Shown: positions 2,795 to 27,625, numbered from the stretch's first letter. The stretch: DNA of 27,625 nt from a virus (IMGVR_UViG_2623620506_000008:1-27625), one strand, 5' to 3'. Notes: generated by a model from the letters alone, not told the origin. Program-made: numbers and translations.

Positions 2795-2815
2795 CGTTAT
2801 GAATTAACTCAGTTC

Positions 2816-3187
2816 TTATTCGTTATCGTCTTCATGGTTTTTAGTTGGCGGTAGCTTGAGCTTAACGATCGCCCGTTCAACCTCGTCATCAGAGGGCTTA
2901 ATGGCGTAAGCAATCAGATAAGCATCTGTGTTTCCGTCTTCCGTAGACCATACATAAGTTTCAATAGCATATTGCTCATACGACGGAGCTTTTGGACCCT
3001 TTAAATTAAAATGGGTATGTACCTTTTGCCCCGTCTGAACAATGAGCTTTTGCGGATCGCCCTCTGCAGGAAAATAAACATAGAAGTCCATGACAATCGC
3101 CTCGTTGAGAATATTACGGTCAATGTAACCTATTTCCTCGGAGGCGGCACCTGCACTTCCGGCCAGCATTTGCAGTTCGGCAGGCAC
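2816..3187 (-). CDS. Hypothetical protein (moron inside the head module); start uncertain
   Basis: ORF-track start is GTG and overlaps the upstream gene; ATG at 3169 or ATG at 3091 (GAGG RBS) are alternatives. GC is lower than the flanking head genes and it has its own terminator. Confidence 0.45.
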   Translation of the reverse strand: MPAELQMLAGSAGAASEEIGYIDRNILNEAIVMDFYVYFPAEGDPQKLIVQTGQKVHTHFNLKGPKAPSYEQYAIETYVWSTEDGNTDAYLIAYAIKPSDDEVERAIVKLKLPPTKNHEDDNE

Positions 3188-3888
3188 CCTGCGTGCCCGG
3201 TCATGCCGTCCAGCGTCGGCGGTTTATCCCAGCGCACAAATTTATTCCGCATTTTGTAGTGGGAATCCCGAGTTCCGGCCCCTTCTATACGCCACCAGTA
3301 GCCCTCTGAACCAATCGACTCTGCGCGCGCCTGGGTGAGTGCTGTCGTGGCCCTGCCGATTTCGGTGCGGGCGATCATCTTCGCGCGGCTCTCCGCCACG
3401 TCGCCGGACTCCATAATCATCCGGTAGAGCGCGTCGGGGCGTTCACCGTTGATGACGGCTTCCATTGCACGCGCCTGGATATCACGAACGCGGTCGGCAG
3501 CCTCCAGCGGCAGAGATTTAATCAGCTGCACCTGGCGGGATACGATGTCCTGAGCCACGAACCCCACCGGCGTATTGCCGACGACATCACGTAGCCCCTC
3601 AGAGATTTCCTGCGATACCGAGCGCCACTGGTTCCACTCCTCCTGCTCAACCTGCAGGAACATGCGTTTGGCTACCCGGTCGGCCCAGTCGTCAATCAGC
3701 AGTGAGTAATCCATCAGCCGGGCGCTAACCTGCTCGGCGCTGACCTCCGAACCATCGTAAGAGTCCGTTACGATCGCCCCTACCTGCTGCGCTATCTCCT
3801 GTAGGCTTTTCTGATACTGGCGCTCCGATTTGCGGCGGAGGTTCGGTTTCAGATTCAGCCTCCTCCCATTCTGCTTTGGCATCTTCAA
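3130..3888 (-). CDS. Head morphogenesis protein (Mu F / SPP1 gp7-like)
   Basis: Position right after portal; probable true start is ATG at 3882 with AAGGA RBS (the track start is TTG). Confidence 0.6.
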   Translation of the reverse strand: MKMPKQNGRRLNLKPNLRRKSERQYQKSLQEIAQQVGAIVTDSYDGSEVSAEQVSARLMDYSLLIDDWADRVAKRMFLQVEQEEWNQWRSVSQEISEGLRDVVGNTPVGFVAQDIVSRQVQLIKSLPLEAADRVRDIQARAMEAVINGERPDALYRMIMESGDVAESRAKMIARTEIGRATTALTQARAESIGSEGYWWRIEGAGTRDSHYKMRNKFVRWDKPPTLDGMTGHAGCLPNCKCWPEVQVPPPRK

Positions 3889-7164: not shown

Positions 7165-7250
7165 AGGTTACTCCGTTCTATCCCCTCTAAGGGATGCGAG
7201 TTACTTTATCCCCAAGTTGGGATAGAGCCATTACGATGGGACTGCCCATG

Positions 7251-7272
7251 GTGATGGCAATAAAAAACCGCC
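7251..7272 (-). terminator. Rho-independent terminator after the 62-aa gene
   Basis: Minus-strand CCGCC-TCCG-GGCGG stem followed by TTTTTTATT, just 3' of the ORF ending at 7302. Confidence 0.45.
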
Positions 7273-7301
7273 CGGAGGCGGCTGGATATAATTGGTGAGT
7301 T

Positions 7302-7490
7302 TTATTTCTTCAAGGCTGCCTGGATAGCATCAGCCAGCTTTTCGATCCTGTCTGTAGCTTGATCTAAGTTACTATGCATCACTCCACCAGAACCTGCCGA
7401 AGCTTTTACTATTTCAAGGGCAGCCTGTACTGCAAGTAAACGTTGTCTGTCCTTCGTCGATACTGTGTTACCAAAATAACCGTCTAACAT
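7302..7490 (-). CDS. Small hypothetical protein (moron between lysis cassette and terminase)
   Basis: 62-aa ORF, ATG at 7490 with strong AAGGGAG RBS, own terminator, GC lower than neighbours. Confidence 0.5.
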   Translation of the reverse strand: MLDGYFGNTVSTKDRQRLLAVQAALEIVKASAGSGGVMHSNLDQATDRIEKLADAIQAALKK

Positions 7491-7579
7491 GATGCTCCCT
7501 TATTTGTTACGATAAGTTAAGTTTCAAGAGCATAATGTAGGTAGGCTCATAGATTTCAAGGGCAAATCCCACCAAAATT

Positions 7580-7840
7580 TTATTGATGTGATGCTCGCTC
7601 AGTTTCTACATTCCTGATACCGACCTTATCAATATTGCACTGGCCCAGCGCCGATAGCAGACTGACATTCAGATCCAGACTGGCCCCGTAGGTCAGCGGT
7701 TCGGGAATGGCAGGCTGTGGTGTTTCAGCTGTCAGGTTCGCCGGCAGCGGCACCACCGGCACCTGCACGTAAACTGTCCGCGTATTCCCGCAACCGGTCA
7801 GCAGCTGCAGGAGGCACAGGCCGACGAGCGCAATCATCAT
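7580..7840 (-). CDS. Rz1: o-spanin (Rz1-like outer-membrane lipoprotein)
   Basis: Signal peptide MMIALVGLCLLQLLTGC with LTGC lipobox, proline-rich mature part, starts inside Rz in another frame. The ORF track extends it to 7906; Met at 7840 is preferred. Confidence 0.6.
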   Translation of the reverse strand: MMIALVGLCLLQLLTGCGNTRTVYVQVPVVPLPANLTAETPQPAIPEPLTYGASLDLNVSLLSALGQCNIDKVGIRNVETERASHQ

Positions 7841-8865: not shown

Positions 8866-9311
8866 TTACCTTCCTCCTCCAGCCCTGGCATCTTGCCGCG
8901 CCGTGATTTGGCGACGATACGAAGCAGGACTGCGACGGAAATGGAAGCAGCAACAAGGGCGCCCACGTTCGGGGATACTTCGATGCTCGCCGGCGGCGTC
9001 AGCAGGCCCAGGGCGGCGTTAATCACCCCGGCCAGAATCTTCGCCATGGGTATGGAGAAGAACACGCCGCCGATAAATGAGATGACCGCGAACAGCATCT
9101 GCTTCCAGAGTTGGTGAGGTTCCGAGGTCAGCACGTACATTGCCGCCCCTGCAAGGGCGCACAACATTACGCCGGGCGTCGCCTCCGGGAACATTGAAGC
9201 GAAGGTGATCCCCACCGTTGCGGAAGTCACTCCACTGGCAATTGTGATTGGCTCAGCCATATGTATTCCGTGTGTAATTGAGGTCAGGCTCTCGGGCTGC
9301 ATTAACAACAA
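8862..9311 (-). CDS. Putative holin
   Basis: Several predicted transmembrane segments, charged C-terminus, first gene of the lysis cassette; real start probably ATG at 9302 or 9260. Confidence 0.5.
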   Translation of the reverse strand: MLLMQPESLTSITHGIHMAEPITIASGVTSATVGITFASMFPEATPGVMLCALAGAAMYVLTSEPHQLWKQMLFAVISFIGGVFFSIPMAKILAGVINAALGLLTPPASIEVSPNVGALVAASISVAVLLRIVAKSRRGKMPGLEEEGK

Positions 9312-9399
9312 GGCTTGTCGAGGGTGATTGCCCGGAGCCTGAAATAGAAAAGCCGCGGCGTAATCGCGATAAAGTGCGCGAAAAGAGGCTGCGGCTCAG

Positions 9400-9436
9400 A
9401 AACGAAAAAGCCCCACGGAGTTAACCGCAGGGCTTA
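9400..9436 (-). terminator. tR'-like terminator in the late leader
   Basis: Minus-strand stem AAGCCCTGCGG / CCGTGGGGCTT (two G-U pairs) followed by TTTTCGTTT, between Q and the lysis genes. Confidence 0.45.
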
Positions 9437-9604
9437 AATAGGGGTTGTGGCTTCATCTCAAGGCGTCTTTTGACCCGGTGTGCGATGTTTACTTATTTCC
9501 TCACCACTTCAACGAAGGCAGTAACCCATCGTTAGAAAGAAATTAACACAGATTCGGGAAAAGTAAATAGCTCACGATAAAATCGTTAGCGATTATTTAG
9601 CTCG

Positions 9605-10387
9605 TTATCGAGTTATTGCTCGCAGCTGCGATTCGGCCCACGCTTCTTCCATGTCGAATTTGGTGATCAGCCGGTCGTAAAACGGCTTCACTGACTTTTT
9701 CCAGGTGTCCAGAGTAATGGCGTCAGTAATCATGCATACAGCCGCATATGCCTCAGTCGAGGGGATCCGCTCGTATCCGCGCCCGCCGCAGCGTTTACAG
9801 TCGGCCAGCACCGGCACACCCTGCTTCTCAGTCAGGTCCTGATTCACCGCCTTTCCCCTCCCGTGGCAATCGCTGCATGCTGCACTGACCTGCCCGGCCC
9901 CCTTACACTTTTGGCAAAGCACCCTCACGGTCTCCTGGACCTTGATCATCCCGGCCACCTTCATCTTACCTTCCGGCTTACGGAATTTATTGGTGAACAC
10001 GTCAGCCTCGATGAACCCCTGCCCTGCGCAGCAATCGCATTGCTTCACACTGGCGGCGCTGCGGGAGTAGTCTTCAAAAGCGAAGGTGGCCAGTTGGCGC
10101 ATCACCAGCGGTTTAATCCCAGCGTCCAGCTTGCGCAGGGCCGCCACGCTATCGCATTTGGTCAACGCATACTGGGCCAGAAGCTCGATCGCCCTCTCCC
10201 GATCGTTGTTGCTGATGCCCATCTTTCCGAGAAAGGCACTGTAGCCCATGGCGGCGCGTTCCTGGGTCATGCCCATGGCTGCCATGATGTCTGTGCCGGT
10301 CAGTAAATCTGAAGCCGTAGCGCGCGGAGAATCGCTAATCAGCGTCGATTTGGCAAAGTGGTATTTCACGGTGTTTTCGAGGTTCAT
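9605..10387 (-). CDS. Q: Late-gene antitermination protein Q-like
   Basis: 260-aa ORF with clustered Cys motifs (CDCC, CQKCKG, CSDCHG, CKRCGG); sits between nin region and lysis cassette. Confidence 0.7.
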   Translation of the reverse strand: MNLENTVKYHFAKSTLISDSPRATASDLLTGTDIMAAMGMTQERAAMGYSAFLGKMGISNNDRERAIELLAQYALTKCDSVAALRKLDAGIKPLVMRQLATFAFEDYSRSAASVKQCDCCAGQGFIEADVFTNKFRKPEGKMKVAGMIKVQETVRVLCQKCKGAGQVSAACSDCHGRGKAVNQDLTEKQGVPVLADCKRCGGRGYERIPSTEAYAAVCMITDAITLDTWKKSVKPFYDRLITKFDMEEAWAESQLRAITR

Positions 10388-11554: not shown

Positions 11555-11751
11555 ACCTTCTGACGGAATGCCCCCGGCGTACGTTCCTGCCGGCGCGCCT
11601 CCGGCAGCCTGGCGCTGACGGTCCAGGTGAGATAATCACGGTTAAGGCTGCGCTCTACCTTCACGCCGCGGCGCCGGTATTCCCACATAAGCTCTTCGGC
11701 CTGCTCCGTGGTGCATTCGGTATGGTGAAACCAGGTATATTTCATTGGCAT
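11545..11751 (-). CDS. Hypothetical small nin-region protein
   Basis: Likely start is the ATG overlapping the upstream stop (TGATG at 11749-11753); the track ORF extends to 11835. Confidence 0.35.
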   Translation of the reverse strand: MPMKYTWFHHTECTTEQAEELMWEYRRRGVKVERSLNRDYLTWTVSARLPEARRQERTPGAFRQKVWG

Positions 11752-12347
11752 CACCCCGCGAAGCTCATGAGCTGCGCAGCGGCGTTCTCCGCGTCGCGCT
11801 GGCTCTTGAATGCCCTGGACAATATCCAGCGCCACAGGACATCAAGCGCAGCTTTGTACAGCTGCTGGAACTCGGTTTCGTCCATATTGGCGAAGGCAAT
11901 GCTGCGGGGATGTTTGCGGAGTGTGCCGTCAGGCAGCTGGATCGCGTCGTAGTGACCGGATTCGATGGTTACCCAGGCGCGGTAGGCATCGAATGACTTA
12001 CAGGCACTGATGCTGCCTGTGCGCTTATCAGCGATGCGATCGAGATATTGCTCAGCGGCATCCAGCAGCGCCCCTTCGTTCCCGCCGTAGGAGGCCAGAA
12101 ATCTGGCATAGCCGGTAACCAGCTTGCGTTCGTTGGAAGAGATCGCCCCGCCAGTTGGCTCCCAGTATTCAAACCCGAGGTTCAGAAGCGCGAAGAAGCG
12201 GCGATGGAAAGCCGGATTACGGACCTGTTTGAAGTCGGCCACCAGCACGGCGCCGAGCTTAATTTTTGATTGCAGTATGTCGCTGGTCTCCGGCGTGGCG
12301 GGGATCAGGATTCCTGAGGACTGCTTGATTAGTTGTAACTGCGCCAT
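11751..12347 (-). CDS. Hypothetical nin-region protein
   Basis: 198-aa ORF with ATG start and phage-like context; family not recognised with confidence. Confidence 0.5.
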   Translation of the reverse strand: MAQLQLIKQSSGILIPATPETSDILQSKIKLGAVLVADFKQVRNPAFHRRFFALLNLGFEYWEPTGGAISSNERKLVTGYARFLASYGGNEGALLDAAEQYLDRIADKRTGSISACKSFDAYRAWVTIESGHYDAIQLPDGTLRKHPRSIAFANMDETEFQQLYKAALDVLWRWILSRAFKSQRDAENAAAQLMSFAG

Positions 12348-12429
12348 GGGATTCTCCGTGGCGCATCGTGGTCAGGTTACCGGTTGTTCAGGCCGGTATA
12401 AACATTATGCTATTCAGACACTAAAAAGG

Positions 12430-12723
12430 TCAATTACTGGCTGATAACTCTCTGACGATCTCCACCAGAGTTTCGCGTGATATGACGCGTTCGTCCGTCT
12501 GAAGGCGCTTATAGCCAATTTCTGCGCCAGCAACATTCACCAGCACACGATCTCCTGGCCGGAGTTTAAACGAACACGCGGTAGCGCCATCAGAACGCCT
12601 CACGATATCGAAATACTCACCTCCATCAGAACACACCTCAGCCACATCAACCCCCTTCTTTGCTATCAACAAATTTATCTCTGCCGGCGGGAAAAGCTCC
12701 CCTTCATGAAACCAAGATAACAA
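12430..12723 (-). CDS. Hypothetical protein with no in-frame ATG
   Basis: ORF has no ATG; candidate starts are TTG at 12723 or GTG at 12648 (AAGGGGG RBS 5 nt upstream). Lies 78 bp downstream of the LexA box on the minus strand. Confidence 0.3.
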   Translation of the reverse strand: MLSWFHEGELFPPAEINLLIAKKGVDVAEVCSDGGEYFDIVRRSDGATACSFKLRPGDRVLVNVAGAEIGYKRLQTDERVISRETLVEIVRELSASN

Positions 12724-12800
12724 ATGGCTCTAATTTCCTAATAGGTTGGCCGACAAAGAATTCAAAAATTTTACTGCAGCTCTTAAACCATATCTCAAAA

Positions 12801-12820
12801 TACTGTATAAATAAACAGTG
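12801..12820. promoter_or_regulatory. LexA (SOS) box
   Basis: TACTGTATAAATAAACAGTG matches the E. coli LexA consensus TACTGTATATATATACAGTA at 17 of 20 positions with intact CTGT-N8-ACAG; overlaps a plus-strand TTAAAC-18 bp-TATAAA promoter-like pair. Confidence 0.6.
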
Positions 12821-13140
12821 TTTATCCGTTCGGCTTAAGTATGCACGTGAAAGGCATCTTTGCGCAAGGTCATTTATCTAATTGATTTGGATAATTTTTA
12901 TCGCTACTTACGTGTAAAAAATGATCGTTATTTTTAACACTCAGCGCAGAAAAGTATGCTGGTATAGATATCTTATTCCAATACTCTAGCTTACCACTCA
13001 GGGAGTAGGTCCCTACGCCAAGGGTATATAGAAGCACGGACGCATTCTGTCAGGTTGGTAATTTGTTACTGCAGAGTGTATGTTTCATAATCGTTTTAAT
13101 AGATTAATATCATTTCATCGATCCGTTAAGGCGATCAAGT

Positions 13141-14184
13141 ATGCACGGCTGGCCTTCATACGACCAATGCTTAGAAAAGCATTCTGAAGAAACCATAAGT
13201 GACTTGCACTTTGTTACCACACCACTTCGGAAATTTGAGCTGACCAGTGGCTGCGCAAACGGGGTAGCACATTGCCTATTTAATTCTATAGAAGTAAAGT
13301 ACCCAACATTATTCAGCTATTTGTTAAGGGAATTTATGAAAAGAGGAATGATAATCACGAGTAAAGTTGAGATAGATCAGGAAAATAACTCCGTTAAATT
13401 TAGACCAGAATTTAGCCAAAAGGCTCTGCGATATGGAGTGCTTTATCTTGATGAAATTTGTGTCGCGCAGACCTCTCTGTTTCAAATTGGATTGCCGGTT
13501 GATTGGCAACAACTAAAGAAGGAGAAAATAGTTAATGAGATCATTGGTAAGCCATCGCTCAGCGGAACGGTCGATTTTGCAAAAGCAGCTTTAGATGCAT
13601 ATTCCCAGTCGTTTTCTGAGTTAAACAAACGCCGAAATGAAACTTGGTGTCTCAATAAAGAATTCAAATTCCTCAATGAGCGCATTCCATTTATTGATTG
13701 TCATGGGGAAACTCTAACATTTTTGAATGCGCTTCCTGTGCCTACCGAAGACTTTCCTATAGGTGATCTTTATGAATTCCGCATAAAAAGAGATGATGAG
13801 CGCAAAGAGTTGATGAATTCAATTGATCGACTTAGGCTCAACGTTCTGAAAAGTGAAGATAAACACAATGCACTTAAAGTAGGCTTACTTGATGTTGAGA
13901 GTAATCTCATAACAATGAATCGCCTAATCAAAGAAACGAAGAGAGGTTTCTACCTTACTGATTTTTCATTGGATTACTCATCTAAAGATATGCTCGAAGT
14001 TTTCAAAGGAACATATGAAGCAACCACCACCTCAGGATTCGACAAACTTTCAGCATTAATCTTAGGTATGGGGGCATCACTAGCTTCAGGATTCAATTTT
14101 AAGGGGGGATACAGATATAAGCAGGCAAAACCAAACTCCCCTTATTTTTACGCAGCAGAGATAGTACATAAGTTTGATGTTTAA
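13141..14184 (+). CDS. Orphan low-GC protein, function unknown (moron)
   Basis: 347-aa ORF on the opposite strand to the surrounding early operon; GC about 32-43% against 55-60% flanks; alternative start ATG at 13336 with AAGGGA RBS; strong hairpin just after the stop. Confidence 0.6.
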   Translation: MHGWPSYDQCLEKHSEETISDLHFVTTPLRKFELTSGCANGVAHCLFNSIEVKYPTLFSYLLREFMKRGMIITSKVEIDQENNSVKFRPEFSQKALRYGVLYLDEICVAQTSLFQIGLPVDWQQLKKEKIVNEIIGKPSLSGTVDFAKAALDAYSQSFSELNKRRNETWCLNKEFKFLNERIPFIDCHGETLTFLNALPVPTEDFPIGDLYEFRIKRDDERKELMNSIDRLRLNVLKSEDKHNALKVGLLDVESNLITMNRLIKETKRGFYLTDFSLDYSSKDMLEVFKGTYEATTTSGFDKLSALILGMGASLASGFNFKGGYRYKQAKPNSPYFYAAEIVHKFDV

Positions 14185-14195
14185 TTCTTCAAAGT

Positions 14196-14228
14196 GAGGA
14201 TTCAAATTTTAAGCGCATTTGAATCCTC
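14196..14228 (+). terminator. Perfect 12-bp stem-loop after the orphan gene (terminator or insulator candidate)
   Basis: GAGGATTCAAAT-TTTAAGCGC-ATTTGAATCCTC, 12 nt after the stop; weak U-tract. Confidence 0.4.
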
Positions 14229-14458
14229 GTCTTACTAAGTATATATCGTTTATGCCTAGAGTTTAATTACTGGAGTAAGATTTTCACTGACTTAAAATAT
14301 TGAACATGAGACGTTTAGGTATTTTCGGAGTTTGCGAGCCGACTAAGTAAACACAGCGTCCTTGACGCCCTACACTGACAACCTAACCTAGTCAGCATCT
14401 TTTTACGCTGATTCACTAATTATGTATGCCTGCGCGTTTAAATGCTCATTGGTGAATG

Positions 14459-14953
14459 TCATGGGTTAGTCCTCGCTAAAACTCTGATTCCCTCAGCAAT
14501 GTCTACCAACGTTTCTGAATATTCTCGCTGCGCGTCATTTCCAAATTCAAACGAGCCAGTGTCGTTATCAACACGACCATGCTCGTTATCGAAAGACTCG
14601 CGCTGCTTATCAACCCAGTTCGCAGCAGCAGACACACCTTCACTAAAAGCTGATTCTGTAGGCATGAAAGACAGATCGGCGAAGAACTCACCAAAGCCAA
14701 AGCAGACTGAATATGCCAGGCGGCCATGCGGTTTGTAGCCAGGGTTAGTGATATCCGTTGTTGAGTACGTGGCGGTGATTTCCTCAACTACCGCCTCTGG
14801 CCGCGATGGGTTATCAGACCATGGGATGCAAATCAGGTCGAAGTCTCGCGCCATCGTTCCATGAATAGCCATGGCGTAACCGTGCTTACGAGCTATCTCT
14901 GCCAGTGCCGGGTAAAGCGCGCAATATACTGGTGCGAAGTTAGCTGGTTTCAT
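14459..14953 (-). CDS. Hypothetical early protein
   Basis: Probable start is the ATG at 14953 next to the upstream stop; the track ORF extends to 15034; no confident family. Confidence 0.45.
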   Translation of the reverse strand: MKPANFAPVYCALYPALAEIARKHGYAMAIHGTMARDFDLICIPWSDNPSRPEAVVEEITATYSTTDITNPGYKPHGRLAYSVCFGFGEFFADLSFMPTESAFSEGVSAAANWVDKQRESFDNEHGRVDNDTGSFEFGNDAQREYSETLVDIAEGIRVLARTNP

Positions 14954-18933: not shown

Positions 18934-19353
18934 GTGCGTATGAATGAAATTACTTTCCCGACCTTCGCTAGAAGAATTCAACAAGTAATGGCTGAAAACG
19001 GCTGGTCGAAATCTGACCTCGCCAAAAAGGTCATGCTTTCGCATACGGCCGTTCAAAATTGGGCTAAGGGTAGAAATGTAGCCAGTGGAGAGCGGTTGAA
19101 GAGGCTTGCTGCTGTAACAGGAAAGCCTGAGCATTGGTTCTTTATGGAGGAAGGTCAGGAAGATGCGGCGACAAACACCTTGGGTCAGTCGGCTGTAGAA
19201 CTTGATGAGAAAGAACAGGCCCTACTTTCCCTCTTTAACCAGCTCCCTGAAGCTGAAAAGTTAAGACTCATCCTTCACACTAAAGCTGTCCTTCATGAGA
19301 TTGAGCTTCTAAAAAACGACGTATACGACATTATCAACAGCTCTAAAACATAG
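18934..19353 (+). CDS. cI: Prophage repressor, RacR/CI-like HTH, no peptidase S24 domain
   Basis: N-terminal HTH (WSKSDLAKKVMLSHTAVQNWAKGR), 139 aa, no Ser/Lys autocleavage domain; divergent from cro; first ATG at 18940. Confidence 0.7.
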   Translation: MRMNEITFPTFARRIQQVMAENGWSKSDLAKKVMLSHTAVQNWAKGRNVASGERLKRLAAVTGKPEHWFFMEEGQEDAATNTLGQSAVELDEKEQALLSLFNQLPEAEKLRLILHTKAVLHEIELLKNDVYDIINSSKT

Positions 19354-25891: not shown

Positions 25892-26945
25892 TCTGCCCCG
25901 TAACCTGACCTATCGTAAAAGAGACAGGCTTTATAGCTGGCGCAACCCGACAACCGGCCAGGAAATATCTCTTGGCCGGATCGACAGGAAGGATGCCATC
26001 TCTCAGGCCATAGAGGCCAACAACTACATCGAACAGAATTACCTGCCCTCAGCTCTGCTTGACCGCATAAAGGAGACCCCTACCTTTACGGTTAAGAGCT
26101 GGCTTGAACGGTACGAGGTGATCCTTGAGCGAAGAGAGTTGAAGCCAAACACCATGAAGGTCAGGCGAAATCAGATCGCAACCATTAAGGATGAATTCGG
26201 CAAGATGCCGTTATCCTCAGTTAGCACGAAGGACATATCAAACTTTCTTGAGTCCTATATTTTATGCGACAAGAAAAGCATGGCCGCCGGCCTACGGTCC
26301 GTGCTGCTGGACATTTTCAGGGAGGCTATTGTCGAAGGGCATATAGAAAGGAACCCAGCGGATCCTACGCGAACGCCGACACCAAAGGTAAAACGGGAGC
26401 GTTTGCTGCTCGAGCATTTTATAGTTATCCGCGCGGCAGCTGCTTCCCACTCGGAGTGGTTGCCGAACGCCTGCAATCTTGCTCTGGTTACAGGACAGCG
26501 CCGCGAGGACATTTCGCTTTTTCGGTTCAGTGACGTTAAGGATGGTAGGCTATTTGTTACGCAGGAGAAGACGGGACACAAACTGGCGCTGCCGCTTGAT
26601 TTGAAATTGGAGGCCGTGGATCTTGTGCTTGAAGAGGTAATCGAACGCTGCAGAGTAAATAATCCCTCAGACTTTATGCTTTTCTCCCCAGTCAGGCGTG
26701 GGGGCAGAAAGCCGGGCCCCTTAACTCCAGATGGTTTAACCCAGGCTTTTGCGGATGTGCGAGATGCAACGGCGTTAAAATTTGGCCCGAACCCACCGCC
26801 CTACCATGAGATCAGAAGCCTGGCCAGCAGACTATATGAAAAGGAACGTGGAGAGGAATTCACGCAACGTTTGCTCGGCCACAAAAATTTAACAATGACA
26901 AAAAAATACCTGGACGCACGCGGTGCAGAGTATGTTATGGTTTAG
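25860..26945 (+). CDS. int: Tyrosine integrase, lambda Int-like
   Basis: Extensive similarity to recalled lambda Int (LALVTGQRREDI, HEIRSLASRLYEKE, LLGHK, Tyr near the C-terminus). Confidence 0.9.
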   Translation: MAKRPVRYDANLPRNLTYRKRDRLYSWRNPTTGQEISLGRIDRKDAISQAIEANNYIEQNYLPSALLDRIKETPTFTVKSWLERYEVILERRELKPNTMKVRRNQIATIKDEFGKMPLSSVSTKDISNFLESYILCDKKSMAAGLRSVLLDIFREAIVEGHIERNPADPTRTPTPKVKRERLLLEHFIVIRAAAASHSEWLPNACNLALVTGQRREDISLFRFSDVKDGRLFVTQEKTGHKLALPLDLKLEAVDLVLEEVIERCRVNNPSDFMLFSPVRRGGRKPGPLTPDGLTQAFADVRDATALKFGPNPPPYHEIRSLASRLYEKERGEEFTQRLLGHKNLTMTKKYLDARGAEYVMV

Positions 26946-27213
26946 ACAGGATATGGATTATTCGAGTAAGTTTCGGGGGATTTCGTGAGAACACCGAAAA
27001 AACCCTTAAGAAACAAATAGATAAAAAGAGACCGAATACGATTCCTGTATTCGGTCCAGGGAAATGGCTCTTGGGAGAGAGCCGTGCGCTAAAAGTTGGC
27101 ATTAATGCAGGCTTAGTTGCCTTGCCCTTTAAGAATAGATGACGACGCCAGGTTTTCCAGTTTGCGTGCAAAATGGTCAATAAAAAGCGCGGTGGTCATC
27201 AGCTTAAATGTTA

Positions 27214-27257
27214 AAAACCGCCCGTTCTGGTGAAAGAACTGAGGCGGTTTTTTTATT
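27214..27257. terminator. Bidirectional rho-independent terminator between int and the host gene
   Basis: AACCGCC...GGCGGTT stem with inner GTTCT/AGAAC pairing, flanked by AAAAA on one side and TTTTTTTATT on the other. Confidence 0.5.
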
Positions 27258-27283
27258 GGAAATCAAAACGCTAGTTTAGGTAA

Positions 27284-27625
27284 TTAACAGAGTTTTTCAG
27301 CTCGTTCTATAAACGGTGCCAGACTCATTTTTTCGCCGGGATTGTTAGGATCATCAATCTGAATCACCGAAATGGGTTGGGCTTTAGTCTTCCCACTGGC
27401 AACTTCCTTTTGTGCGATATCGTTTAAAGGATACTGCACGAGGGTACTTGGGTTGATGACATACAAAGCATTACCCGGTCGGCAAGTCAGCATCACCTCT
27501 TCGCGATTAAACGCCCATTTGTCTTTACCCACTTCAAAACGGCTGACGGTAATCACCTGCGGTGCAGCCAGCGCCGCTGCAGAACTGGTGAGTAACAGAA
27601 ACGCCAGAATACTTTTTTTCATCAT
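27284..27625 (-). CDS. yebY: Host periplasmic protein, YebY-like (DUF2511)
   Basis: 113-aa product with signal peptide [22 protein letters not shown]; closely matches the recalled E. coli YebY; ORF starts at the window edge. Confidence 0.6.

What the first reader, a model, noticed from the sequence alone, without database searches (positions are those of the whole stretch)
12724..14458. A 1.7-kb compositional island with a strong hairpin at its 3' boundary
GC drops sharply exactly between the minus-strand gene ending at 14459 and the one starting at 12723. The island holds the LexA box, a long AT-rich leader, the orphan gene and a perfect 12-bp stem-loop at 14196-14228 with a weak U-tract. 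The hairpin sits where plus-strand transcripts from the orphan gene and minus-strand early-right transcripts collide, so it may be a bidirectional terminator or RNA-processing site.
Basis: seen in the sequence. Interest (0 to 1): 0.55.

Follow-up and report, generated by a model that had tools for sequence, protein, structure and literature searches.

The report
Prophage cargo gene beside SOS switch
The AT-rich island is real but is two adjacent things: the conserved SOS-controlled switch region of a Gifsy-like prophage, and an inserted, backwards-facing cargo gene of unknown function (DUF6236) that carries its own 3' hairpin. Both are ordinary kinds of phage feature.

Summary
GC falls to 0.38 over 12646-14458, against 0.55 elsewhere. 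The 12-bp perfect hairpin at 14196-14228 is real and unlikely by chance.

The island is composite. (a) 12646-13137 is the conserved AT-rich control region of the minus-strand 71-aa gene (12430-12645, GTG start). That gene is a full-length homologue of the Gifsy-2 antirepressor GftA. It sits next to an irsA/DUF1367 homologue, and the prophage repressor is 65% identical to GtgR. The LexA box (12801-20) keeps its position in five loci of other prophages that lack the orphan gene. It therefore belongs to the antirepressor, not to the orphan gene. (b) 13138-14445 is a 1.3-kb cassette absent from sister prophages. It carries a 282-aa DUF6236 gene (true start 13336, not 13141) antisense to the early-right operon.

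DUF6236 homologues occupy the same slot, antisense, in three other lambdoid backbones. They lie at prophage ends elsewhere and are always AT-richer than their phage. Six of eight cassettes have an unrelated hairpin just after the stop codon. The hairpin is therefore most likely the cassette's own 3' terminator or stabiliser, but it lacks a U-tract on either strand.

DUF6236 function is unknown: there is no fold, defence-database or literature match.

The parts
12430..12645 (-). 71-aa gene with a GTG start. It is a homologue of the Gifsy-2 antirepressor GftA.
   Evidence: Most database homologues are 71 aa. It aligns end to end with Gifsy-2 STM1020.1n, the only gene between dinI and the irsA homologue: 30% identity, 58% positives, pairwise E 3e-11. 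The database-wide tblastn E is 3e-3. The RBS AAGAAGGGGG lies 5 nt before the GTG.
12646..12800 (-). Promoter-proximal region and roughly 135-nt leader of the antirepressor gene. A candidate -10 (TATGGT) lies at 12792-12787.
   Evidence: Nearly invariant in L024 and L025, and conserved in L040-L042, including TAT.GTT. The promoter assignment is inferred.
12801..12820 (.). LexA box TACTGTATAAATAAACAGTG.
   Evidence: It is the only CTGT-N8-ACAG in the window. The box occupies the same position (-174 to -176 from the GTG) in L024, L025, L040, L041 and L042, with the CTGT/ACAG arms kept and the spacer varying.
12821..13137 (.). Conserved AT-rich non-coding region upstream of the LexA box. It includes a GATC/ATCGAT-rich block at about 13040-13130.
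   Evidence: Homologous in all antirepressor loci: 89-91% to L024-L029 and 74-81% to L040-L042. The 55-aa ORF 12870-13037(-) is frameshifted in L024. No RNA covariation was found, and the fold z-score is -1.1.
13138..13335 (+). 5' non-coding part of the DUF6236 cassette. It holds the left junction, the spurious ORF extension from 13141, and a 7-bp hairpin at 13166-13183.
   Evidence: Homology to sister prophages stops at 13137. The 65-aa extension has no homologue in any family member. Homologues all start at MKRG. No similarity to the flanks of other cassettes.
13336..14184 (+). DUF6236 (PF19749) gene of 282 aa, antisense to the early-right operon.
   Evidence: Pfam 39.4 bits against a cut-off of 26.2, and phrog_23128 at E 4e-20. 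Homologues of 282 aa at 41-66% identity. There are 866 family clusters. GC 0.38, GC3 0.34.
14196..14228 (.). Perfect 12-bp stem with a 9-nt loop, 11 nt after the DUF6236 stop codon.
   Evidence: Unrelated hairpins lie within about 30 nt of the stop codon in L011, L017, L021, L038 and L045.
14229..14445 (.). 3' non-coding tail of the cassette. It contains a minus-strand terminator-like hairpin at 14369-14355.
   Evidence: No homology to any other fetched locus. GC 0.38.
14446..14477 (.). Right junction: a 32-nt gene-boundary sequence shared with prophage L025. It spans the stop of the 164-aa gene (14459-14953, minus strand).
   Evidence: blastn match of window 14446-14477 to L025 1747-1778 at 97% identity.
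18940..19353 (+). Prophage repressor of 137 aa, HTH only with no S24 cleavage domain. It is the presumed target of the antirepressor and is listed as context.
   Evidence: Pfam finds HTH_3 only. It is 65% identical to Gifsy-2 GtgR (STM1012), E 2e-66.

Best explanation
The 1.7-kb low-GC stretch consists of two adjacent modules in a Gifsy-2-like lambdoid prophage of E. coli.

Module 1 (12430-13137, minus strand) is the prophage's SOS switch. A LexA-repressed promoter (box at 12801-12820) and a leader of about 135 nt drive a 71-aa GftA-type antirepressor. After DNA damage, that protein would bind and inactivate the non-cleavable GtgR-like repressor encoded at 18940-19353. Its 490-nt AT-rich upstream region is conserved phage DNA, not cargo.

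Module 2 (13138-14445) is a moron-type cassette inserted immediately upstream of that switch, in the variable slot between the replication-proximal genes and the nin genes. It encodes one 282-aa DUF6236 protein, transcribed against the early-right operon, so the gene can be expressed independently of lytic transcription. The 12-bp hairpin 11 nt past its stop codon is the cassette's own 3' element. It would end or stabilise the DUF6236 transcript and limit antisense read-through into the 164-aa gene.

Shown: the module boundaries, the homologies, the conservation of the LexA box, the recurrence of DUF6236 in accessory slots, and the recurrence of 3' hairpins.

Inferred: promoter positions, termination at the hairpin, expression in the lysogen, and a lysogen-benefit role for DUF6236 (most likely exclusion of, or defence against, other phages).
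For: Boundaries. Sister prophages L024-L029 match the window from 11701 to 13137 at 93-94% and then diverge. A 32-nt junction match marks the right edge at 14446-14477.

Antirepressor identity.
- Full-length alignment to Gifsy-2 STM1020.1n.
- The neighbouring DUF1367 gene is 86% identical to Gifsy-2 STM1020.
- The same gene order lies between the replication genes and ninG/Q.
- The repressor is 65% identical to GtgR and lacks S24.
- PMC3121763 maps gftA to the dinI-irsA interval, gives it a GUG start and LexA control, and shows it inactivates GtgR.

LexA box. It is conserved at the same distance in five loci of other prophages.

Cargo status of DUF6236.
- GC 0.38 and GC3 0.34, against 0.55 and 0.6-0.77.
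- Homologues sit antisense in the same slot in three other backbones.
- Others lie between int and the tail-fibre gene in Klebsiella phage Mulock, at a Vibrio prophage end, and at an element edge next to lepA.
- The gene is AT-richer than its host phage in all five cases measured.

Hairpin. It exceeds chance, and six of eight cassettes have a hairpin just after the stop.
Against: - No promoter for DUF6236 could be identified. Promoter-like hits are no more frequent than in shuffles.
- The hairpin fails the intrinsic-terminator criteria: no U-tract on either strand and a 9-nt loop.
- Two of eight cassettes (L039, L047) show no 3' hairpin.
- The GftA match is weak database-wide (E 3e-3). There is no dinI gene in the operon, unlike Gifsy.
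- Nothing links DUF6236 to defence. PADLOC gives only a non-significant SduA hit (E 0.023). PDB and BFVD fold searches give nothing. No paper mentions the family.
Confidence: 0.75

Rival explanations
1. One reading: one island in which the LexA box drives a long AT-rich leader and the orphan gene, making DUF6236 an SOS-induced gene.
For: On the plus strand, a TTAAAC-17-TATAAA arrangement overlaps the box (my reading of the sequence). The box lies between the two divergent genes.
Against: - The box and its flanks are conserved with the minus-strand gene in five loci of other prophages that lack DUF6236.
- The plus-strand hexamers are not conserved in L040 (my reading).
- The box is 516 nt from the true DUF6236 start, and a homology breakpoint lies in between.
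- Other DUF6236 cassettes have no adjacent LexA box.
Confidence: 0.07
2. The hairpin, together with the antisense cassette, acts mainly on the minus strand. It would be the terminator or insulator that shields the LexA-controlled antirepressor promoter from early-right read-through. That is the role of the palindromes that precede the LexA box in the Gifsy prophages.
For: - PMC3121763 reports terminator-like palindromes before the LexA box in all Gifsy prophages, and they are visible in Gifsy-2.
- L024 has a canonical terminator (GGCCTC-TGCG-GAGGCC followed by TTTTTCTT) and L025 a hairpin exactly at the junction with the conserved block.
- In the window no such element lies at the junction, so the cassette's hairpins (14228-14196, 14369-14355, 13183-13166) are the only candidates.
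Against: - The minus-strand tail is ACUUUGAAGAAUU, not a U-tract.
- Efficient termination here would also cut off the nin genes and Q from early-right transcription, and no antiterminator was identified.
- The hairpin's position tracks the DUF6236 stop codon in unrelated backbones.
Confidence: 0.2
3. The inverted repeat works at the DNA level, as a binding site for a dimeric protein or as a recombination site used to move the cassette.
For: The arms are perfect 12-bp repeats with a 9-bp spacer. The cassette is clearly mobile between backbones.
Against: - Other cassettes carry hairpins of unrelated sequence at the same place. This fits an RNA-level role, not a shared protein-recognition site.
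- There is no matching repeat at the other cassette end.
- There are no attC-like core sites (my reading).
- Cassette flanks share no homology between backbones.
Confidence: 0.05
4. DUF6236 is a lytic-cycle accessory protein of the phage (for example in replication or recombination) rather than a lysogen-expressed gene.
For: It lies among nin/ea-type early genes. The family is also found in phage records.
Against: - It is antisense to the early operon in all four lambdoid backbones.
- It is absent from sister prophages.
- Elsewhere it sits at att-proximal moron positions.
- Its composition is foreign.
Confidence: 0.15

Closest known systems
Morons of lambdoid phages (in the sense of Hendrix and Juhala: an extra gene with its own promoter and terminator and deviant composition, inserted between two genes of a related phage). 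This definition is from my own knowledge.
   Same: The 1.3-kb DUF6236 segment is present or absent between otherwise homologous prophages. It has much lower GC than its flanks, holds a single gene, has a stem-loop right after the stop, and is oriented so that it can be expressed independently of lytic operons.
   Different: No promoter could be identified. The stem-loop lacks a U-tract. The gene family has no known function.
Gifsy-1/-2/-3 LexA-controlled antirepressor operon (dinI-gftA/gfoA-irsA) with non-cleavable repressors GtgR/GfoR (Lemire et al. 2011, PMC3121763).
   Same: A small protein with a GUG start, homologous to GftA. It lies directly upstream of an irsA/DUF1367 homologue that is 86% identical. 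A LexA box lies upstream. The module sits downstream of the replication genes. The repressor is 65% identical to GtgR and has no S24 domain.
   Different: There is no dinI gene. Instead the box is followed by a leader of about 135 nt and preceded by about 320 nt of conserved AT-rich non-coding DNA. No canonical terminators lie directly before the box. The antirepressor is only 30% identical to GftA.
Rho-independent terminators at convergent gene ends, including bidirectional ones.
   Same: A stable stem-loop between convergent transcription units, immediately after a stop codon. The L021 cassette has a textbook bidirectional one at the same place.
   Different: In the window the stem is AT-rich (4 GC pairs of 12), the loop is 9 nt, and neither strand has a U-tract.
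Pfam DUF6236 (PF19749) / phrog_23128.
   Same: The window protein scores above the Pfam gathering threshold and aligns over its full length with family members.
   Different: The family is uncharacterised, so membership says nothing about function.

Membership tests
Moron (accessory cassette in a temperate phage) | Present in one phage and absent at the same position in close relatives | tested here: met
   L024-L029 share window 11701-13137 at 93-94% identity and then carry other genes.
Moron (accessory cassette in a temperate phage) | Base composition differs from the surrounding phage genome | tested here: met
   The cassette has GC 0.385 against 0.553, and GC3 0.34 against 0.6-0.77. The same holds in five other host phages.
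Moron (accessory cassette in a temperate phage) | Own promoter | tested here: inconclusive
   Only 9/12 matches (13063-13091, 13084-13113), and these are no more frequent than in shuffles.
Moron (accessory cassette in a temperate phage) | Own terminator | tested here: inconclusive
   A strong hairpin lies 11 nt after the stop, and hairpins recur in six of eight cassettes. There is no U-tract.
Moron (accessory cassette in a temperate phage) | Expressed from the repressed prophage | not testable with these tools
   Needs RNA-seq or a reporter in a lysogen.
Pfam DUF6236 (PF19749) | Score above the gathering threshold | tested here: met
   39.4 bits against 26.2. The profile search finds 866 clusters.
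Gifsy-type LexA-controlled antirepressor module | Small protein homologous to GftA/GfoA | tested here: met
   71 aa aligned with 73 aa end to end, 30% identity, pairwise E 3e-11. The database-wide E is 3e-3, so the match is weak but consistent with synteny.
Gifsy-type LexA-controlled antirepressor module | LexA box upstream of the operon | tested here: met
   The box at 12801-12820 is conserved in position in five loci of other prophages.
Gifsy-type LexA-controlled antirepressor module | Located after the replication genes and directly before the irsA homologue | tested here: met
   The gene order matches Gifsy-2, and the DUF1367 gene is 86% identical to STM1020.
Gifsy-type LexA-controlled antirepressor module | Cognate short repressor without a self-cleavage domain | tested here: met
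   137 aa, HTH_3 only, 65% identical to GtgR.
Gifsy-type LexA-controlled antirepressor module | dinI homologue as first gene of the operon | tested here: not met
   There is no ORF or DinI match between the box and the GTG, only a leader of about 135 nt.
Gifsy-type LexA-controlled antirepressor module | Terminator-like palindromes just before the LexA box | tested here: inconclusive
   None is canonical in 12821-13137. L024 and L025 have one at the junction.
Gifsy-type LexA-controlled antirepressor module | Protein binds the repressor and releases it from the operator | not testable with these tools
   Needs a pull-down or EMSA, as in PMC3121763.
Intrinsic (Rho-independent) terminator | G+C-rich stem, short loop, then a U-tract | tested here: not met
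   4 GC pairs of 12 and a 9-nt loop. The tails are GUCUUACU (+) and ACUUUGAA (-). The scan does not call it.
Known anti-phage defence systems (PADLOC-DB 2.0) | Significant match to a defence protein model | tested here: not met
   Only SduA at E 0.023 and 11.8 bits.

The most novel reading that the evidence does not exclude
DUF6236 is an undescribed single-gene prophage determinant for phage exclusion or defence. Its cassettes repeatedly land, antisense and with their own 3' hairpin, in the slot just upstream of the SOS/nin module of lambdoid prophages. There the convergent transcription unit would also replace the terminators that normally insulate the LexA-controlled antirepressor promoter.
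Probability: 0.25. Interest if true: 0.55.

Novelty: new member of a known kind. Interest (0 to 1): 0.3.

Why it matters
The result corrects how this region should be annotated.
- The LexA box marks a Gifsy-type antirepressor switch. This predicts that the E. coli prophage is SOS-inducible through an antirepressor, not through repressor cleavage.
- The 347-aa 'DUF6236 family protein' annotation is most likely 65 residues too long.

It also flags DUF6236 as a testable candidate for a lysogen-benefit function. The family has 866 clusters, no literature and no recognisable fold. It is recurrent, compositionally foreign, single-gene prophage cargo.

None of this overturns current understanding.

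Tried and rejected
- Close DNA matches: megablast of the island against phage records and 5,426 complete E. coli genomes found no close copy.
- Species-representative genomes: the scan with DUF6236 peptide patterns found nothing.
- Viral contigs: the exact LexA-region pattern found nothing.
- Rfam on 12300-14800 gave only chance-level hits.
- Long family members carry no extra Pfam domain.
- The 65-aa N-terminal extension has no homologue.
- No transmembrane segment is evident (maximum hydropathy 1.18).
- The 55-aa ORF at 12870-13037(-) was rejected because of a frameshift in L024.
- A conserved RNA structure in the distal upstream block was rejected for lack of covariation.
Its phage homologues did not help define an empty slot.
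- An attC-like recombination site was considered and rejected from my reading of the sequence.

Full report
**Observation**

The compositional island is real. GC is 0.380 over 12724-14458, against 0.553 for the rest of the window. The lowest 1.3-kb window of the whole sequence starts at 12701 and lies 3.4 sd below the mean.

The stem-loop GAGGATTCAAAT-N9-ATTTGAATCCTC at 14196-14228 is exact. It folds at -16.9 kcal/mol on the plus strand and -16.3 on the minus strand, with z about -4. It is the longest perfect inverted repeat in the window. Only 2% of dinucleotide shuffles contain any 12-bp perfect stem with a 3-12 nt loop.

A LexA-type box, TACTGTATAAATAAACAGTG, lies at 12801-12820. It is the only CTGT-N8-ACAG in the window. 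That alone is not significant, since 32% of shuffles have one.

**Context**

The window is a lambdoid prophage, and all named copies come from E. coli. It is rare: no complete E. coli RefSeq genome carries the island.

The minus strand carries the early-right operon. In order it holds YdaS/YdaT-like genes, O, P, small genes, DUF1367, NinG, Q, lysis genes and terminase. The repressor, kilR, recE and recT are on the plus strand.

**Gene starts**

- The orphan ORF 13141-14184 belongs to Pfam DUF6236 (39.4 bits against a cut-off of 26.2) and to phrog_23128.
- All homologues at 41-66% identity are 280-285 aa and begin MKRG, which corresponds to ATG 13336 preceded by AAGGGA.
- The 65 upstream codons match nothing in any family member. 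They begin exactly at a homology breakpoint.
- The real gene is therefore most probably 13336-14184 (282 aa).
- The minus-strand gene is 71 aa and starts at GTG 12645 with the RBS AAGAAGGGGG. Most of its 34 database homologues are 71 aa.

**The island is composite**

Prophages L024-L029 encode the identical 71-aa protein. They match the window at 93-94% identity from 11701 up to exactly 13137 and then diverge completely. What they carry beyond that point differs:

- L024-type prophages have two antisense genes of 142 and 125 aa, plus methylase fragments.
- L025 has a 659-aa C5-methylase.

More distant copies (L040 from Citrobacter gillenii, L041 and L042) retain homology over the same roughly 490 nt at 74-81% identity. 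They have DNA polymerase III theta-like genes upstream.

On the right, a 32-nt gene-boundary sequence (14446-14477) is shared with L025.

The island therefore divides as follows:

- 12646-13137 is conserved phage DNA attached to the 71-aa gene.
- 13138-14445 (1308 nt, GC 0.385) is the true insertion.

**Module 1 is a Gifsy-type SOS switch**

- The LexA box sits at the same distance (-174 to -176) from the GTG in five loci of other prophages, besides the window itself. The CTGT/ACAG arms are invariant and the spacer varies.
- A TAT.GTT -10 candidate downstream of the box is conserved.
- The 71-aa protein aligns end to end with Gifsy-2 STM1020.1n (73 aa, also starting MAE from a GTG): 30% identity, 58% positives, pairwise E 3e-11. 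The database-wide tblastn E is 3e-3.
- STM1020.1n is the only gene between dinI and the irsA homologue in Gifsy-2. Lemire et al. mapped the GUG-initiated antirepressor gene gftA to exactly that interval. They showed that it is LexA-controlled and that GftA inactivates the non-cleavable repressor GtgR (PMC3121763).
- The window's next gene (DUF1367) is 86% identical to Gifsy-2 STM1020.
- Its 137-aa repressor has only an HTH domain and is 65% identical to GtgR.

The LexA box therefore controls the antirepressor on the minus strand.

This module differs from Gifsy in three ways:

- It has no dinI gene.
- It has a leader of about 135 nt.
- It has about 320 nt of conserved AT-rich non-coding DNA upstream of the box, whose distal block is rich in GATC/ATCGAT repeats.

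That upstream DNA shows no conserved ORF, because the 55-aa ORF is frameshifted in L024. It shows no significant fold and no covariation. Its role is unexplained.

**Module 2 is a moron-type cassette**

DUF6236 homologues occupy the equivalent slot in three further lambdoid backbones. In each they lie between the replication-proximal genes and NinB or the nin/SOS genes, and are antisense to the early-right operon (L011-16, L017-20, L021-22).

More distant members lie in other accessory positions:

- between integrase and the tail-fibre gene in Klebsiella phage Mulock;
- at the end of a Vibrio prophage;
- at an element edge next to lepA in Klebsiella;
- beside an IS1-like gene;
- on one plasmid out of 72,556.

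In all five host phages measured, the gene is 4-20 GC points poorer than its surroundings. There is no conserved partner gene. Cassette flanks share no homology between backbones, and other cassettes lack a nearby LexA box.

The family is large, with 866 clusters at E < 1e-3, but it is uncharacterised:

- No paper mentions it.
- PADLOC gives no significant hit.
- An AlphaFold model (pLDDT 73) shows an N-terminal alpha/beta domain, a long helical hairpin and a poorly defined C-terminus. It has no significant match in PDB or BFVD.
- No transmembrane segment is evident.

A lysogen-benefit role such as phage exclusion is an inference from the genomic behaviour only.

**The hairpin**

It lies 11 nt after the DUF6236 stop codon. 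Unrelated hairpins lie within about 30 nt of the stop in five of the seven other cassettes examined:

- L021 has a textbook bidirectional terminator.
- L017 and L011 each have a hairpin.
- L045 has a 13-bp perfect stem, again without a U-tract.
- L038 has a hairpin.
- L039 and L047 have none.

This recurrence, with no sequence conservation, points to an RNA-level 3' element of the cassette. It could be a terminator or a 3'-end stabiliser that also limits antisense transcription into the 164-aa gene.

It nevertheless fails the criteria for an intrinsic terminator on both strands. The stem has 4 GC pairs, the loop is 9 nt, and the tails are GUCUUACU and ACUUUGAA. The window's clear terminators, after Q and after the repressor, do have U-tracts.

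A rival reading has some support. In Gifsy prophages, terminator-like palindromes precede the LexA box. L024 and L025 have a terminator or hairpin exactly at the junction with the conserved block. In the window that position is occupied by the cassette, so the cassette's hairpins and convergent transcription could supply the insulation. This cannot be decided from sequence.

**Verdict**

A cargo slot and a convergent-end hairpin exist, but the LexA box and the 'leader' belong to the neighbouring conserved antirepressor module.

Both modules are new members of known kinds: a moron and a Gifsy-type antirepressor switch. The residual novelty is the unknown function of DUF6236 and the unexplained conserved non-coding DNA upstream of the LexA box.

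Noticed in passing
window 13040-13130: The distal block of the conserved antirepressor upstream region is packed with GATC/ATCGAT-type repeats (TGATCG, GGATCGAT, TAATCTAT, ACGATTAT on the minus strand). It is conserved in five other prophage loci and shows no RNA covariation. It may be a DNA-level binding or Dam-methylation cluster. Its function is unknown.
   Followed up: partly
window 12837-12847 and 13137-13147: An exact 11-nt direct repeat, AAGTATGCACG. The second copy sits on the left cassette junction and supplies the ATG of the over-long 347-aa ORF. It may be junction microhomology or chance.
   Followed up: no
window 12690-12722 (minus strand): The antirepressor leader contains a 10-codon upstream ORF (ATGAAGGGG...GATAA) overlapping a small GC hairpin. 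It is kept in L040 and L042 (with a GTG start) but truncated in L041.
   Followed up: partly
window 12433-12404 (minus strand): The best sigma-70-like match in the region (TTGACC-18-CATAAT, 10/12) lies between the antirepressor stop and the DUF1367 start. It may be a separate promoter for the nin genes.
   Followed up: no
window 27030-27056: The second perfect hairpin of the window, GACCGAATAC-7 nt-GTATTCGGTC, lies in another low-GC stretch near the right end.
   Followed up: no
window 7200-7600, 2800-3200, 9200-9800, 26800-27600: Further GC dips (0.43-0.49). The one at 7200-7600 holds a 62-aa ORF (7302-7490, minus strand) between the lysis and terminase genes. These may be other small morons or regulatory regions.
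   Followed up: no
L024 2629-3431 (also L026-L029): Sister E. coli prophages carry, in the same slot, two overlapping antisense genes of 142 aa (weak DUF2157 membrane-protein match) and 125 aa. Neither has a defence-database hit. This is another uncharacterised antisense cargo pair.
   Followed up: partly
L011 5561-6849: In one backbone the DUF6236 gene is preceded, on the same strand, by a 97-aa VCH_CASS14 protein, a family named from Vibrio cholerae integron cassettes. A theta-like gene and a LexA-boxed dinI lie next to it.
   Followed up: no
whole window: The prophage GC (0.55) is above what I recall as typical for E. coli. The 164-aa neighbour gene's cluster is mostly from Enterobacter. 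This suggests a recent arrival from Enterobacter or Klebsiella-type hosts.
   Followed up: no
window 14459-14953 (minus strand): The N-terminal roughly 100 residues of the 164-aa protein form a domain found in jumbo phages of Vibrio, Pseudomonas, Burkholderia and Caulobacter (45-60% identity). The C-terminal 65 residues are unrelated to these.
   Followed up: no
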